DNA of 64,000 nt, taken from assembly GCA_038227875.1 (NCBI GenBank), contig JBBRPR010000019.1, positions 32,001 to 96,000 on the forward strand. The letters run 5' to 3'. Shown here one piece after another: positions 27,001-33,000 of this stretch. Positions within the stretch are counted from its first letter, which is position 1. Each line of letters starts with the position of its first letter. The position numbers are program-made. Source of the DNA: Planctomycetota bacterium (GTDB lineage: Bacteria; Planctomycetota; SZUA-567; H5-PLA8).

Positions 27001-30000
27001 TTTCGTCGGTTTGCCCCATCATTGATGCAATCTCCCGAGTATTGGACACTTTACCTCAGCGCAGAGAGGACGGAAACGAGGGAGAAAATTTTTTTACCTA
27101 TACGAATCGACTTAAGCTGTGCGTATCCCGCGAAGCGTTCCATTGCGAGGGATGAGAAAAACGGAGATAATGCGCCACATCCAATCGCACGAATGCAGAA
27201 TGAGGGACGACGGGAAAATGGCATTGCATGAGAAACTGGCTCGCTATTCTTCCGAAGGAAACATCTACCGTTTTAATAAGATACTCAACTTCGCGGCTAA
27301 AGACCTGTCCGGGCTGGATTCGACCGATTGGCAGGTCGAACACATACGCGTAAACAAAGTTACAGATCGTGAACGATTCTTTACGCTGCTCGACGCCTAT
27401 CCCGTAGAACAAATCATGACCGTCAGCGGGCATGCTTGCGGTGTCACCTTCACCGCCATATTTCCGATGAGTGTCGGCTTGTTGCTGCCGTATCGAATCG
27501 AGATTCTCCTCAACGCTTCTATCGACGGAAGTGCCATTTTCCGTCGAGGATTCTTCTGGCCGTGGTGGGATCTTGTTCCGCAAAATGAAACGAGGCTGGA
27601 GCAATTGAGGCAACTTAGCTTGCCAGGCGTGAATCTTAGGCATACATGGGGCGGTTATAAATACGTGTTGAAAGTTGGACATGAGATCGTACCTGTTGCC
27701 AACGATCCAACTCTAAGTAGGTGGACTGTGCACTCTGGATTCCAAGGGTTTGTGATCGGCGTAGGACCTCGCATTGCCAAATACGTGAAGGCAGCGGGAC
27801 GGCTTGAGACACTGTTGAAGGCATGGAGCAAAAATTGAGTTCAGCACCTCACCGTGGCGCCCCCCACGTTTTGCCAACTCTGCCTTGCACCGCGCCGGAC
27901 TTGCCGTTATAAGGGTCCGTTCTGTCGCATTCCGTTACGCTTAAGGGGATGGCGTGGCGGTGGTTGCGGCTTTTTTTGTTTTGACCTTTATTCCGTCTTC
28001 ACGCGGATGTTGTTGCTGTCGGGGGAGAGTACGTGTTCGAAAGTTTGACCAACTCGCTCGGCACCTTCTTCAACAAGGTCCGAGGCAAAGGCCGGAAACT
28101 CACCGAAGCCGATGTTAAAGAAGGCCTCCGCACCGTCCGCATGGCGCTGCTGGAAGCCGACGTCGCATTGCCGGTGGTCAAGGCGTTCATCGAAAAAGTC
28201 ACGGCCAAGGCCATCGGTTCCGATGTCCTGACGGCCGTCGAACCGTCGCAGCAGCTCGTCAAAGTCGTCCACGACGAACTCATCCAGTTGATGGGCCCCG
28301 TCGACGCGCGCGTGAATTACAAGACCGCCGAAGGCGCGACGACAATCATTCTCATGGCCGGTCTGCAGGGATCCGGAAAGACCACGACCTGCGGCAAGCT
28401 GGCGATGTACCTCAAGAGCAAGGGCAAGCGTCCGCTGCTGGTCGCCGCCGACTTGCAGCGCCCGGCCGCGATCGAACAGTTGAAAGTGCTCGGCGAGAGC
28501 CTTGAGACGCCGGTCTTCAACGAGCCAGGTCTCGCGCCGCCGGAACTGTGCGCCAAAGCCATCGCCTACGCCAAGGCCAATAACCGCGACGTCGTGATCC
28601 TTGACACCGCCGGCCGTCTGCAGATCGACGAGCCGCTGATGAACGAGCTGGCCGAAGTTCAGAAAGTCACGCAGCCGGACGAAGTGTTCCTCGTCGTCGA
28701 CAGCATGGTCGGCCAGGACGCGGTGAATTCGGCCAAGGTCTTCAACGAAAAGCTGCCGATCACCGGCGTGATCCTGACCAAGCTCGACGGCGATTCACGC
28801 GGCGGCGCGGCGCTCTCGGTCAAGCACATCACCGGCAAGCCGATCAAGTTCGTCGGCGTCGGCGAAAAGCTCGGCGCGCTCGAAGAATTCCACCCCGAAC
28901 GCATGGCCACGCGCATCCTCGGGATGGGTGACATCGTCAGCCTCGTCGAAAAGGCGCAGGCGGTCATCAACAAGGACGAAGCGGCGGCGTTCCAGGAGAA
29001 AATGGTCAAGGACACCTTGACCCTCGACGACTTCCTGACGCAGCTCCGCGCCGTCAAGAAGATGGGTTCGTTCAAGGACCTGCTGGGCATGATCCCCGGG
29101 TTCGCGCAGTTGAAGGAACTCGATGGCTCCGATGAACAGTTCGGCACGGTCGAAGCGGTGATCTGCTCGATGACGCAGGAAGAGCGGCGCAACCCGCAGA
29201 TCATCGGAGCCAGCCGCAAGAAGCGCATCGCGGCGGGATCCGGCACGACGGTCAACGACGTCGCGCATCTGCTCAAGGAATTCGAAAACGTCACCAAGCA
29301 TCTGTCCAGTTTCACGAAAGCCGCCAAGTTCGTCGACCGCATGGTCCCCGGCGCCGCCGGCCCGGGCGGGGTGAAGACGCTCAGCGCCGACGAACGGAAA
29401 GCGATCAAGAAACGCCGCAAGCAGGAGAAGGCGAACAAGAAAAAGAACAGAAGATAATTATGAACGATGATTGATGAATTATGAATCCGGGCCGTTCATT
29501 CATAGTTCATCAATCATCATTCATGATTAGTAGTTTTCCGGACTCTCCCGTCCGAGCGTTGCACCGGAACTTACTCCGGGCGCTGAACTGGGAGTAAGAA
29601 AGACCTTCGGGTCTAGGCGGGCAAAGAGTGCCGGCCTGTTGTGAAAGGGGAAATGCCGAGTGGTAAAGATCCGTTTACAGAAATTGGGAAGACGCAACCG
29701 TGCGTACTTCCGCATCGTGGTGGCTGACGTGCGGGTGAAGCGCCAGGGCGCCTACCTCGAGAAGCTGGGCACGTACGATCCGATCGAACCGCTGCCGGAG
29801 AAGGCCGTCGTGGTCAATCTCGAGCGCGTGAAGCATTGGACCGCACTGGGCGCCCAGCCGTCGGAAGCCGTGATCAATCTGCTCCGCAAGCGCGGCCTGC
29901 AGTACAACAACAAGCCGACGCCGAAGCCCAAGAAGAAGAAGGAAAAGAAGCCCCTGCCGGCTAAGAAGTAACGCCGCAGCGGGACTTCGCGAGCGTCCAT

Positions 30001-33000
30001 GCGCATCGACATCATTACGCTCTTTCCCGGGATGTTTACGGGAGTGCTCAACGAGTCGATGCTGAAGATCGCGCAGGAGAAGGGCCTCTTAAAGCCCGTC
30101 GTGACCAACCTGCGGGACTTCACGACCGACCGGCACAGAACCGTCGACGACCGGCCCTACGGGGGCGGACCGGGGATGGTGATGAAGCCGGAACCGGTGG
30201 CCGCGGCAGTCCGCGCGGTCCGCGATCAGGAACCTGCTGATCCGGGACGGCTGGTGATGATGTGTCCGCGAGGACGGGTCTTCAACCAGCAGCACGCACG
30301 CGAATTATCGTCCGCCTCCCGGCTGATCTTTGTCGCGGGGCATTACGAAGGGTACGACGAGCGCATCATCGATGTGCTCCAGCCGGAACTGCTGTCGATC
30401 GGCGATTATGTTCTTACCGGCGGTGAACTGCCGGCGCTGGTGGTGATCGACGCGGTGGTGCGGCTGCTGCCGGGTGTGCTTGGCGACTCTGAATCGGTGG
30501 TCAGCGAATCGTTCGCTCCTGCCAATGACGGATTGCTGGAGTATCCGCAGTACACGCGCCCGGCGGTGTTTGAAGGCCTGGCGGTGCCGGACGTGCTGGT
30601 CAGCGGCGATCATGCAAAGATCGCAGCCTGGCGGCGCGAACAGGCGCGCAAGATGACCGAAGAACACCGGCCGGACCTGCTGAATGAAACTTGAACTGGA
30701 AGCTTAAAAAAGCACTCGCAAGACCTGAAGAAAGAAAGGGACTGATAATCATGGCCAAGAAAGACTACATGGAACTGGTGGCGCAGACGGGAATGAAGAA
30801 CGACCGCGTCCGCTCCTTCCGCATCGGCGACACTGTCGACGTCCACGTCAAGATCACCGAAGGCGAAAAGGAACGCATTCAGATCTTCACCGGCATCGTC
30901 ATCGCCCGCCGCGGCAGCAAGCTCAACGAATCGTTCACGGTGCGCCGCCTCGTCGGCACCGAAGGCGTGGAACGCGTCTTCCCGCTGCACAGCCCGATGA
31001 TCGACAAGGTCGACATCAAGAAGAGCGGCAAGGTGCGTCGCGCGAAGCTCTACTACCTGCGCGACCGCGTCGGTAAGGCCACGCGCCTGGCCGAGAACAT
31101 CGAAGGCGGCATCAAGCCCCGCGCCGCCGGTTCGGTTCCCGCCAAGCAGGAAAAGAAGAACAAGGAAAAAGAAGAGGCTGCGCCGGCCAAGGCGTAAGCT
31201 GCTGCTCTGCTGCAGGCGGGACGTCTGCGCTACAATTGATCCGCTCTGTCGGATGAAAATTGTGGCGCAGGCGTCCCGCCTGCAGGTTTTATTTTATCCC
31301 AGTTCCATTCCCGCTCGGGAACCGACCGATGCGCCTCCGTCACGTTCTACTCCTGGGATCCGGCGCTGGCGCGATGGGCGCATTATTGCTCGCCGCCGAC
31401 ATTCATCGCCGCGTGCAGGAAGCGCAGCGCGATTCGGTGCTCGGCACCGTGGCGACCGGCGCAGATTCCGTCATTCATTTCGGCGACGCCCACACCCTGG
31501 GGCTACTGGCACTGGCGTTCCTGTTCATCGCGATGTTCCTGATGGTGATCTCCGAACCGCTGCGCAAGAGCGCTCCGGAAACGCTGCCGGTTGCGGCTGC
31601 GATCCCTGCTTCAGTACCTGTACCCGTTTCAGTTGCCACGCTCGTTTCCAATTCGGTTCCTGAGCGACCTGCTGAAACGCCGAAGCCCGTTGAACGTGTT
31701 GCGCCTGCGATTGCTGAACCTGCCGCGGCCGCTCCCGCTGAATCTCCGGCCGCGCTGTCCGCTCCCGAAACTCCAGCAGCAGTGCCTCAAATCAGTGAAA
31801 CTAAAGAGACACCGGCCAAACCAGACGCCGTGTGAAGACGGCATGACGATTGGTTGAAGAATCCCGGTCTGCATCACGATCGCGAGTGGTCAGTCGCGGT
31901 AGATTATCAGTAAGTCGTTTTTGCCGCTGCACTTGTGCGGTCGAACTTTACTGATATTAGTATTTCTAATAGTGAGTATATTGTTAAATTTAGCGTGAAT
32001 TATAACCATTTTCGTATACAAGCTTAATCTTCGTAGGTTATCTACGCAGTGGGCTTACACGAAGCAACCTTTTGCATCGTGGCTCCACCGAAAAAATGGG
32101 TTTGTTTGATTTTAGCCTACCCTCCACAGGTGGACGGGTCTTTGCGCTAAACAAGTAGGCAGGAACGGCTCGAAACGGGCAGGAAAAGTCGGAAAGCCGG
32201 AAGAAAAGAAGGGGAAGAGCATGGATCAGCACATTGGTTTGCCACCCGCGCAGGGATTGTACGACCCGGAGAACGAACGCGACGCCTGCGGCGTCGGCTT
32301 CGTCGCGCATTTGAAGGGCAAACGATCACACCAGATCGTGGCCGACGCACTCCAAGTCCTTGTAAATCTCTTGCATCGCGGAGCTTGCGGCTGCGAAGTC
32401 AACACGGGTGACGGCGCCGGCATCTTGATCCAAGTGCCCCATACATTCTTTAAGCGCGAAGCCTCGAAGTTGGGTTTTGCGCTTCCTGAACCCGGTCACT
32501 ACGGCGTCGGAATGGTCTTTCTTCCGAAGGATGCTGCACAACGTGACCAGATGGTGAAATTATTCGAAAAGGCAGTCGTCAACGCCGGGCAAAAGGTGCT
32601 CGGCTGGCGCGACGTCCCCACCGATAACCGGAAACTTGGCCAAAGCGCCATCGACGCCGAGCCCGTCATCCGCCAGGTGTTCATCGGCCGCGGCACGAAA
32701 GCGGAGACCGAAGACGCGTTTGAACGCCGTCTGTTCTTGATCCGCAAGGACGCCGGCCACGCTGCCAGCGAGTCCAACCTGAGCCAGAAGGGATTCTTCT
32801 ACCTGCCCAGCTTGTCGTGCCGCACGATCATCTACAAAGGCATGCTGATCGCCGACCAGATGGAAAGCTACTTTCCCGATCTGCTCGACCCGGAGATGGA
32901 TTCGGCGCTGGCGCTGGTCCATCAGCGCTTCAGCACCAACACGTTCCCGAGCTGGAGTCTGGCGCATCCGTTCCGCTACCTCGCGCACAACGGCGAAATC

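What a model noticed while it worked through the whole genome (the two positions that open the first line are those of the whole stretch)
28033..31197. The 30S assembly factor RimM is cleanly missing from its rpsP-trmD-rplS operon slot, as in every Planctomycetota genome [...]
In most bacteria rimM lies between rpsP (S16) and trmD. Here the block ffh - rpsP - trmD - rplS is intact on C19:60033-63197, but rpsP ends at 61971 and trmD starts at 61999: 27 bases, no room for rimM, and no RimM domain occurs anywhere in the six-frame genome. The same search finds none in the 19 other genomes of the order nor in 100 other Planctomycetota genomes sampled (two of them from the order), while all 10 bacterial control genomes have it. 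RimP, the 30S maturation factor that normally precedes nusA, is also absent here (the gene upstream of nusA, C25:29503-30828, is a divergent LprI gene) and in all 20 genomes of the order, and is found in only 14 of 101 genomes of the phylum. Smal [...]
Evidence so far: Gene order and coordinates from genes.tsv/pfam.tsv: g02959 SRP54, g02960 Ribosomal_S16 (61660-61971), g02961 tRNA_m1G_MT (61999-62694), g02962 Ribosomal_L19. pfam.tsv has no RimM or RimP_N row, but RBFA, YbeY, RrnaAD rows. Six-frame HMM search PF01782 (RimM, cut-off 23.5 bits): 0 of 20 genomes of the order and 0 of 101 Planctomycetota genomes (100 of >=90% completeness plus this one); controls 10 of 10 bacteria. PF02576 (RimP_N): 0 of 20 in the order, 14 of 101 in the phylum (13 over cut-off); controls 10 of 10 bacteria. 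Full-text search RimM + Planctomycetes: 34 papers, 8 listed, none about this by title or abstract; the one opened (PMC12283558) holds the letters only in an author name of a [...]
(Added by a program. Inside this text positions count along the whole contig: contig position 32,001 is position 1 of the stretch shown here. "Call 12" and the like, gene names such as g00115 and contig names such as C1 are that model's own, and its searches are not shown. The text may have been shortened before it was handed on; [...] marks where a part breaks off. The agent that wrote the report below was given it as the finding of a first reader that could run no searches.)

Follow-up and report, generated by a model that had tools for sequence, protein, structure and literature searches.

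The report
RimM gene lost across PVC bacteria
The ribosome-assembly gene rimM, present in nearly all bacteria, is missing from its usual place here and could not be found in about 400 sampled genomes of two large related phyla, so these bacteria seem to build the small ribosomal subunit without it.

Summary
In the window ffh (28033-29457), rpsP (29660-29971), trmD (29999-30694) and rplS (to 31197) lie in a row, and rpsP and trmD are 27 bases apart. Four RimM/PRC models and an unfiltered local profile search find no RimM in the window's own genome.

In the phylum, PF01782 matches 1 of 201 genomes. That match lies on a 1.9-kb contig carrying a transposase-like gene and a second trmD, so it is probably contamination.

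- PF01782 alone is a weak test. It passes only 3 of 81 Hydrogenedentota genomes, although they carry rpsP-khpA-rimM-trmD-rplS. A profile built from those divergent RimMs finds 60 of 81.
- With that better profile, Planctomycetota still give only the contaminant, and Verrucomicrobiota give 0 of 201. TrmD is found in 201 of 201 of the same kind of Verrucomicrobiota sample. Their operon is rpsP-khpA-trmD-rplS.

The loss is therefore at least Planctomycetota plus Verrucomicrobiota, not one phylum. RimP is also missing here, is kept in 28 of 201 Planctomycetota, and is found in 0 of 121 Verrucomicrobiota.

Published work describes this double loss only for CPR bacteria. This is a real, moderately interesting comparative result with no mechanism yet.

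The parts
28033..29457 (+). ffh (signal recognition particle protein, 474 aa), first gene of the block
   Evidence: ORF. Pfam SRP54 251 bits, SRP_SPB 106.9 bits, SRP54_N 66.5 bits.
29660..29971 (+). rpsP (ribosomal protein S16, 103 aa, GTG start, lysine-rich C-terminal tail)
   Evidence: ORF. Pfam Ribosomal_S16 75 bits over residues 9-68.
29972..29998 (.). 27-base spacer between the rpsP stop and the trmD start; this is where rimM (and khpA in some phyla) lies in other bacteria
   Evidence: Sequence read directly: TAA ends at 29971 and ATG starts at 29999.
29999..30694 (+). trmD (tRNA m1G37 methyltransferase, 231 aa); no extra domain and no fusion
   Evidence: ORF. Pfam tRNA_m1G_MT 198.3 bits over residues 24-225.
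30691..31197 (+). rplS (ribosomal protein L19). The longest ORF starts at TTG 30691 and overlaps the trmD stop by 4 bases. An ATG at 30751 behind a purine-rich stretch is the likelier start (148 aa).
   Evidence: ORF, sequence. Pfam Ribosomal_L19 148.1 bits over residues 27-135 of the 168-aa form. The choice of start codon is inference.

Best explanation
rimM was lost once, long ago, in the lineage leading to both Planctomycetota and Verrucomicrobiota. The ancestral operon was probably of the type ffh-rpsP-khpA-rimM-trmD-rplS, which Hydrogenedentota still have. Verrucomicrobiota keep rpsP-khpA-trmD-rplS. Planctomycetota, including this genome, also lost khpA from the slot, so rpsP abuts trmD.

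These bacteria mature the head of the 30S subunit without RimM. Most of them also lack RimP. They would rely on the remaining late 30S factors, which here include two RbfA-type genes and two RsgA genes, and presumably on co-adapted S19, S13 and 16S rRNA.

Shown here: the gene is absent from the slot and not detectable in the genomes searched. Inferred: a single ancient loss, the shape of the ancestral operon, and the absence of a dedicated replacement.
For: Slot in the window: a 27-base gap.

Slot in relatives: in 19 of 30 Planctomycetota trmD loci S16 lies directly upstream, with gaps of 2-107 bases. One of these, L015, I corrected by hand to 51 bases from the ORF list. In the other 11 loci S16 is not within 1.5 kb.

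Own genome: nothing with four curated models, and nothing in an unfiltered profile search of 127,874 ORFs.

Planctomycetota:
- PF01782 matches 1 of 201 genomes.
- Profile A1 gives 13 of 201 at E<=0.1. Only G109 is significant (3.8e-59). The other 12 have E 0.008-0.095 and 14-18 bits, as short pieces inside large frames.
- TrmD is found in 198 of 201.
- The G109 match lies on a 1931-base contig with a transposase-like ORF and the start of a second trmD, while a full trmD lies on another contig.

Verrucomicrobiota:
- PF01782: 0 of 201 over the cut-off.
- Profile A1: 0 of 201.
- TrmD: 201 of 201.
- 30 of 30 trmD loci have S16 upstream, and 24 of 30 hold only a KhpA ORF in between (PF13083, 65-87 bits).

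Sensitivity controls:
- A1 finds RimM in 60 of 81 Hydrogenedentota.
- PF01782 finds it in 4 of 4 environmental genomes of Armatimonadota, Chloroflexota, Eisenbacteria and Acidimicrobiia.
- PF01782 finds it in 10 of 10 bacterial control genomes.

Remaining factors in the own genome: RbfA at 95 bits plus a paralogue at 35 bits, and RsgA at 173 and 151 bits.
Against: Absence was tested only by sequence profiles. A two-barrel protein that has diverged beyond HMM reach, or an unrelated replacement, would not be seen. The Hydrogenedentota case shows that RimM can drift under the Pfam cut-off.

In large genomes the whole-genome tool scored only 17 of up to 64 first-look candidates. Only the own genome was searched without filters.

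The own genome is 88.1% complete. Both phylum samples are samples, not censuses.

Chlamydiota and other PVC-related phyla were not tested. No tree was built, so a single loss is inferred from distribution only.

That the G109 contig is a contaminant is argued from its context. Its G+C (0.645) is close to that of the native trmD locus (0.666), so composition does not settle it.
Confidence: 0.8

Rival explanations
1. A true RimM homologue exists elsewhere in PVC genomes, outside the rpsP-trmD slot, but has diverged so far that no sequence profile used here recognises it.
For: RimM domains are short (84 and 69 profile positions). In Hydrogenedentota the N-terminal domain scores only 18-33 bits, and PF01782 passes just 3 of 81 genomes.
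Against: Even those divergent forms keep a PRC_RimM domain at 27-53 bits and stay in the slot. A profile containing them finds nothing in 200 other Planctomycetota or in 201 Verrucomicrobiota. It also finds nothing in an unfiltered search of the own genome. PF24986 and PF05239 give at most 14 bits in the own genome.
Confidence: 0.07
2. RimM was replaced by an unrelated, still unrecognised assembly factor or by a paralogue of another factor. One candidate is the extra RbfA-like gene, which is coupled to rtcB in this genome.
For: The own genome has a second short RbfA-type gene (119 aa, 35.0 bits against a cut-off of 34.7) whose stop overlaps the start of an RtcB ligase gene. It also has two RsgA genes. 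From recall, not from a call: extra RbfA partly suppresses an E. coli rimM deletion.
Against: No link between these paralogues and the loss was tested, and their distribution across PVC was not examined. RbfA acts at the 5' end and h44/h45 region rather than on S19 in the head (recalled). Nothing new occupies the slot in any of the 60 PVC loci read.
Confidence: 0.12
3. The absence is an artefact of incomplete assemblies or binning.
For: The own genome is 88.1% complete in 176 contigs, and many genomes in the samples are MAGs.
Against: The slot itself is contiguous and intact in the window. Samples were limited to genomes at least 90% complete and include single-contig genomes. The neighbouring gene trmD is found in 198 of 201 and 201 of 201 genomes.
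Confidence: 0.01

Closest known systems
Loss of RimM and RimP in CPR bacteria (Patescibacteria)
   Same: The same two 30S maturation factors are missing lineage-wide. I read passages of Nat Commun 2019 (PMC6744442) and of Mol Biol Evol 2025 (PMC12641178), and the latter's supplementary table, which gives rimM in 94.9% of non-CPR and 0.4% of CPR genomes.
   Different: CPR have tiny genomes and reduced ribosomes, and the loss is read as part of general reduction. PVC genomes here range from 0.9 to about 10 Mb (9.3 Mb for this one). Neither text contains 'Planctomycet' or 'PVC', and the 2025 paper calls rimM and rimP more than 90% conserved in non-CPR bacteria.
Canonical rpsP-rimM-trmD-rplS operon (E. 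coli type) and rpsP-khpA-(ylqD)-rimM-trmD-rplS (Bacillus type)
   Same: The gene order ffh-rpsP-trmD-rplS and the tight spacing are kept. Hydrogenedentota show the full khpA-rimM form.
   Different: rimM (and khpA) are missing in the window. Verrucomicrobiota lack only rimM. The E. coli and Bacillus gene orders are recalled, not taken from a call.
E. coli rimM deletion mutants and their suppressors
   Same: They show that a bacterium can live without RimM and that changes in S13, S19 and 16S helices 31 and 33b compensate. I read the relevant passage of the review PMC9032327.
   Different: That is a laboratory mutant with a severe growth defect. Here the state is natural and ancient. Whether PVC S19, S13 or 16S rRNA carry analogous changes was not tested.

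Membership tests
RimM (ribosome maturation factor M) | N-terminal RimM beta-barrel domain (PF01782; also covered by the full-length model TIGR02273) | tested here: not met
   Own genome: best 13.8 bits with PF01782, nothing with TIGR02273. Planctomycetota: 1 of 201, a probable contaminant. Verrucomicrobiota: 0 of 201 over the cut-off.
RimM (ribosome maturation factor M) | C-terminal PRC-barrel domain (PF24986, PF05239) | tested here: not met
   Own genome: best 13 and 14.1 bits. Full-length profile A1, which covers this domain: best E 0.3 in an unfiltered search; no real hit in 200 other Planctomycetota or in 201 Verrucomicrobiota.
RimM (ribosome maturation factor M) | Gene located between rpsP (or khpA) and trmD | tested here: not met
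   The window has a 27-base spacer. In 19 of 30 Planctomycetota loci the gaps are 2-107 bases. Verrucomicrobiota gaps hold only KhpA.
RimM (ribosome maturation factor M) | Double-barrel fold and binding to S19 on pre-30S particles | not tested
   There was no candidate protein to fold.
RimP (ribosome maturation factor P) | RimP_N (PF02576) plus the C-terminal Sm-like domain (PF17384), usually upstream of nusA | tested here: not met
   Own genome: 13.1 bits with PF02576. The 20-bit PF17384 hit lies in a 130-aa ORF next to a tgt-like gene, which by eye is YajC. A Planctomycetota RimP profile gives best E 0.078 in an unfiltered search. Upstream of nusA there is only a divergent 117-aa ORF.
rpsP-trmD-rplS ribosomal operon | S16, TrmD and L19 genes adjacent on one strand | tested here: met

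The most novel reading that the evidence does not exclude
Planctomycetota and Verrucomicrobiota are free-living bacteria with large genomes. They lost RimM in their common ancestor, and most also lack RimP, the same pair that CPR bacteria lack. They would therefore mature the 30S subunit by a rewired route that uses a dedicated factor not yet recognised. One possibility is the RbfA-like paralogue coupled to RtcB. If so, reduced assembly-factor sets are not simply a by-product of genome reduction.
Probability: 0.2. Interest if true: 0.75.

Novelty: new member of a known kind. Interest (0 to 1): 0.5.

Why it matters
RimM is treated as a near-universal bacterial factor. A 2025 survey lists it as a BAC120 marker and gives it as present in 94.9% of non-CPR genomes. 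Its loss has been discussed only for CPR bacteria, as part of genome and ribosome reduction.

Here it is undetectable in two large, mostly free-living phyla, and RimP is gone from nearly all of them too. That has three consequences:
- Loss of these factors is separated from genome reduction.
- It provides a natural system for asking how the 30S head folds without RimM.
- It warns that single-Pfam presence or absence calls can mislead, as they did for Hydrogenedentota. It also warns that marker-based completeness estimates for PVC genomes must not expect rimM or rimP.

Tried and rejected
1. TrmD fused to a RimM-like domain. Several Planctomycetota trmD matches lie in open frames of 463-573 aa. 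Reading six of them showed that the extra N-terminal parts are low-complexity stretches typical of chance open frames in high-G+C DNA, not domains.

2. Weak RimM hits.
- The PF01782 13.8-bit hit lies in a 1071-aa frame.
- The best A1 hit in the own genome is a 100-aa frame on contig C34 (E 0.3), which reads as low-complexity sequence by eye.
- The 12 weak A1 hits in other Planctomycetota are short pieces in frames of 149-1389 aa.
- One 18.2-bit Verrucomicrobiota hit contains two in-frame TGA codons.
All were taken as noise.

3. RimP candidates.
- The PF17384 20-bit hit is a 130-aa membrane-type ORF next to a tgt-like gene. By eye it is YajC; I did not scan it.
- The best hit of the Planctomycetota RimP profile (E 0.078) is a 175-aa ORF on contig C108. 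By eye it resembles a REP/IS200-type transposase; I did not scan it.

4. nusA downstream of the Planctomycetota RimP genes. tblastn with the own NusA found nothing within about 1.2 kb in 20 loci, so gene context could not be used to look for a hidden RimP.

5. KhpA in the own genome. A local profile built from 23 Verrucomicrobiota KhpA sequences found nothing at E<=1.

6. Literature.
- Searches for rimM with Planctomycetes, Chlamydia, Verrucomicrobia or superphylum mostly return papers citing an author named Rimm.
- A search for TIGR02273, PF01782, COG0806 or K02860 gave 7 papers, none on PVC.
- Lovgren et al. 2004 (PMC1370667) is not held.

7. Earlier notes of this scan: 76 mention RimM and 8 were shown, none on PVC.

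Full report
**The observation.** The window carries, on the plus strand:
- ffh (28033-29457);
- rpsP (29660-29971, 103 aa);
- trmD (29999-30694, 231 aa);
- rplS (30691 or, more likely, 30751 to 31197).

Each is confirmed by a strong Pfam hit. The rpsP stop ends at 29971 and the trmD ATG is at 29999, which leaves 27 bases. There is no room for rimM. TrmD has no extra domain.

**RimM in the own genome.** The genome is 9.34 Mb, 176 contigs and 88.1% complete.
- PF01782 gives at best 13.8 bits.
- TIGR02273 gives nothing at E<=10.
- PF24986 gives 13 bits.
- PF05239 gives 14.1 bits.
- All ten bacterial control genomes are positive.

I also laid the genome in the script box, cut it into 127,874 six-frame ORFs of 40 aa or more, and ran an unfiltered hmmsearch with a RimM profile that includes very divergent members. 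The best hit had E 0.3 and 13.5 bits.

**The phylum.** PF01782 matched 1 of 201 Planctomycetota genomes. All but the own genome were asked to be at least 90% complete. The query TrmD protein matched 198 of 201.

The single RimM match (G109) is on a contig of only 1931 bases. That contig holds a transposase-like ORF, a canonical 171-aa RimM and the first 61 codons of a trmD. The same genome has a full trmD of the phylum's own type on another contig. A second copy of a single-copy gene on a tiny contig points to contamination. By eye the RimM looks alphaproteobacterial, but that is recall, not a test. G+C does not discriminate (0.645 against 0.666).

Of 30 trmD loci read, 19 have S16 directly upstream with gaps of 2-107 bases. 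In the other 11, S16 is not within 1.5 kb, and other genes precede trmD. Long open frames around trmD in some genomes are chance frames, not fusions.

**Is PF01782 a fair test?** To look outside the phylum I scanned the named genome collection with a 16S probe that targets Verrucomicrobia and used the records found as centres.

Environmental genomes of Armatimonadota, Chloroflexota, Eisenbacteria and Acidimicrobiia were all positive. A Hydrogenedentota genome was negative. Across Hydrogenedentota only 7 of 81 genomes matched at E<=0.01, and only 3 of 81 passed the cut-off.

Yet the weak matches lie in ORFs of 175-180 aa sitting exactly between a KhpA gene and trmD, in the order ffh-rpsP-khpA-rimM-trmD-rplS. 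These ORFs pass the PRC_RimM model at 27-53 bits. So they are real RimMs whose N-terminal domain has drifted.

An alignment of five of them plus the G109 RimM (A1) finds a full-length RimM in 60 of 81 Hydrogenedentota genomes. PF01782 alone can therefore wrongly report a phylum-wide absence.

**The stronger test.**
- With A1, Planctomycetota gave 13 of 201 matches at E<=0.1. One is G109, which is itself a row of A1. The other 12 have E 0.008-0.095 and 14-18 bits, and are short pieces inside large frames.
- In large genomes the tool scored only 17 of the first-look candidates. This limit is lifted only for the own genome.
- Verrucomicrobiota gave 0 of 201 at E<=0.01 with A1 and 0 of 201 over the cut-off with PF01782. 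The one sub-threshold hit there (18.2 bits) contains two in-frame TGA codons.
- Four named Verrucomicrobiota genomes and one named Brocadiaceae genome gave 0 of 5.
- As a positive control, PF01746 (TrmD) matched 201 of 201 Verrucomicrobiota genomes.

In the 30 best Verrucomicrobiota trmD loci, S16 is always upstream on the same strand. The gaps are 14-554 bases. In 24 of the 30 the gap holds one ORF of 76-117 aa that is KhpA (PF13083, 64.6-86.9 bits) and shows no RimM or PRC hit. In the remaining six, my ORF filter found nothing of 40 aa or more. An Opitutales locus read earlier shows S16 (215 aa) followed directly by trmD and rplS.

**Reading.** Three operon states emerge:
- Hydrogenedentota: rpsP-khpA-rimM-trmD-rplS.
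- Verrucomicrobiota: rpsP-khpA-trmD-rplS.
- Planctomycetota: rpsP-trmD-rplS, or trmD split from rpsP.

A local profile of 23 Verrucomicrobiota KhpA sequences finds nothing in the own genome. The simplest account is one old loss of rimM before Planctomycetota and Verrucomicrobiota diverged, followed by loss of khpA from the slot in Planctomycetota. That is inference from distribution. I built no tree and could not test Chlamydiota.

**RimP.**
- In the own genome PF02576 gives 13.1 bits.
- PF17384 gives a 20-bit hit in a 130-aa ORF next to a tgt-like gene. By eye this is YajC; I did not scan it.
- nusA is C25:29503-30828 on the minus strand, followed by infB. Upstream there is only a divergently oriented 117-aa ORF.
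- In the phylum, PF02576 matched 23 of 201 genomes, 17 over the cut-off.
- A profile of 19 Planctomycetota RimPs (A2) raised this only to 28 of 201. The hits cover whole families (6 of 6, 4 of 4, 6 of 6, 2 of 2), with 0 of 5 in the window's own family.
- A script-built profile of the same 19 RimP sequences, run unfiltered on the own genome, gave best E 0.078, on an ORF that by eye is transposase-like.
- In Verrucomicrobiota PF02576 matched 0 of 121. No lineage-specific profile was available there, so that result is weaker.

**What remains for 30S assembly.** The own genome has a canonical RbfA (95 bits) and a second, short RbfA-type gene (119 aa, 35.0 bits against a cut-off of 34.7). The stop of the second overlaps the start of an RtcB RNA-ligase gene (298.6 bits). 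It also has two RsgA GTPases (173 and 151 bits). Whether any of this relates to the loss is untested.

**What is in print.**
- A 2019 paper (PMC6744442; passages read) reports RimM missing from most CPR genomes and RimP essentially missing from CPR.
- A 2025 survey of more than 30,000 genomes (PMC12641178; passages and supplementary rows read) does the same. It gives rimM as present in 94.9% of non-CPR and 0.4% of CPR genomes and lists it as a BAC120 marker.
- Neither main text contains 'Planctomycet' or 'PVC'. The supplement of the 2025 paper lists 40 Planctomycetota genomes, but in the rows I saw it gives no per-phylum rimM figure. Its figures are not held and may show one.
- A 2022 review (PMC9032327; passages read) calls RimM conserved in bacteria.
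- Full-text searches for rimM with Planctomycetes, Chlamydia, Verrucomicrobia or superphylum, and for the family accessions, found nothing on this point.

So I found no explicit statement of the loss in PVC. It is surely implicit in marker-gene tables.

**Verdict.** The finding is real and survives a stricter test than the one that produced it. Its scope is wider than stated: at least two PVC phyla. It is a lineage-wide loss of a kind already known from CPR, here in large-genome bacteria. It is of moderate interest, and its mechanism is open.

Noticed in passing
G000:C26, about 84136-85637 (L217 1456-2957): A second, short RbfA-type gene (119 aa, PF02033 35.0 bits against a cut-off of 34.7) whose stop overlaps by 4 bases the start of an RtcB RNA-ligase gene (PF01139, 298.6 bits). 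The canonical RbfA (154 aa, 94-95 bits) lies on C3. The pairing of a ribosome-binding-factor paralogue with an RNA ligase is unexplained.
   Followed up: partly
G000:C4:189561-190088 and G000:C14:45056-45604: Two full RsgA-type GTPase genes (173.2 and 151.1 bits) in one genome.
   Followed up: no
L175-L180 (Hydrogenedentota genomes G411, G436, G488, G455, G467, G485): Hydrogenedentota RimM has a strongly diverged N-terminal domain. PF01782 passes only 3 of 81 genomes, but a profile of these proteins finds 60 of 81, all in the order ffh-rpsP-khpA-rimM-trmD-rplS where read. Pfam-based presence calls for RimM in this phylum would be wrong.
   Followed up: yes
L226-L255 (Verrucomicrobiota trmD loci): KhpA lies between rpsP and trmD in 24 of 30 loci. 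In 11 of the 24 it carries an N-terminal extension, giving 105-117 aa instead of 76-78. In L234 about 300 bases between khpA and trmD hold no plus-strand ORF of 40 aa or more. This could be a remnant of rimM and was not examined.
   Followed up: partly
L002 (G109:C89, 1931 bases): A tiny contig in a Planctomycetota MAG carrying a transposase-like ORF, a canonical RimM (PF01782 85.6 bits) and the start of a second trmD. It is probably contamination of the bin.
   Followed up: partly
Planctomycetota genomes G033, G054, G119, G147 (family f34, genus g40): TrmD matches in two pieces with much weaker E-values (about 1e-44 to 1e-46) than in the rest of the phylum. This suggests an insertion in or a split of trmD in this genus.
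   Followed up: no
window 29660-29971, and S16 genes in L009-L037, L170, L226-L255: The S16 C-terminal tail varies widely in length across PVC: 81-197 aa in Planctomycetota loci, up to 215 aa in an Opitutales genome, and 103 aa with a lysine-rich tail in the window.
   Followed up: no
window 31260-31835 and 25799-27049: The 191-aa ORF just downstream of rplS (hydrophobic stretch, then a Pro/Ala-rich tail) and the 416-aa ORF upstream on the minus strand have no Pfam match. The 1518-aa ORF at 32221-36777 looks by eye like a glutamate synthase large subunit; I did not scan it.
   Followed up: no
L196-L215 (Planctomycetota RimP loci): Where RimP is kept in Planctomycetota, no nusA was found within about 1.2 kb downstream by tblastn with the own NusA (0 of 20 loci). 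The usual rimP-nusA linkage seems to be broken.
   Followed up: partly
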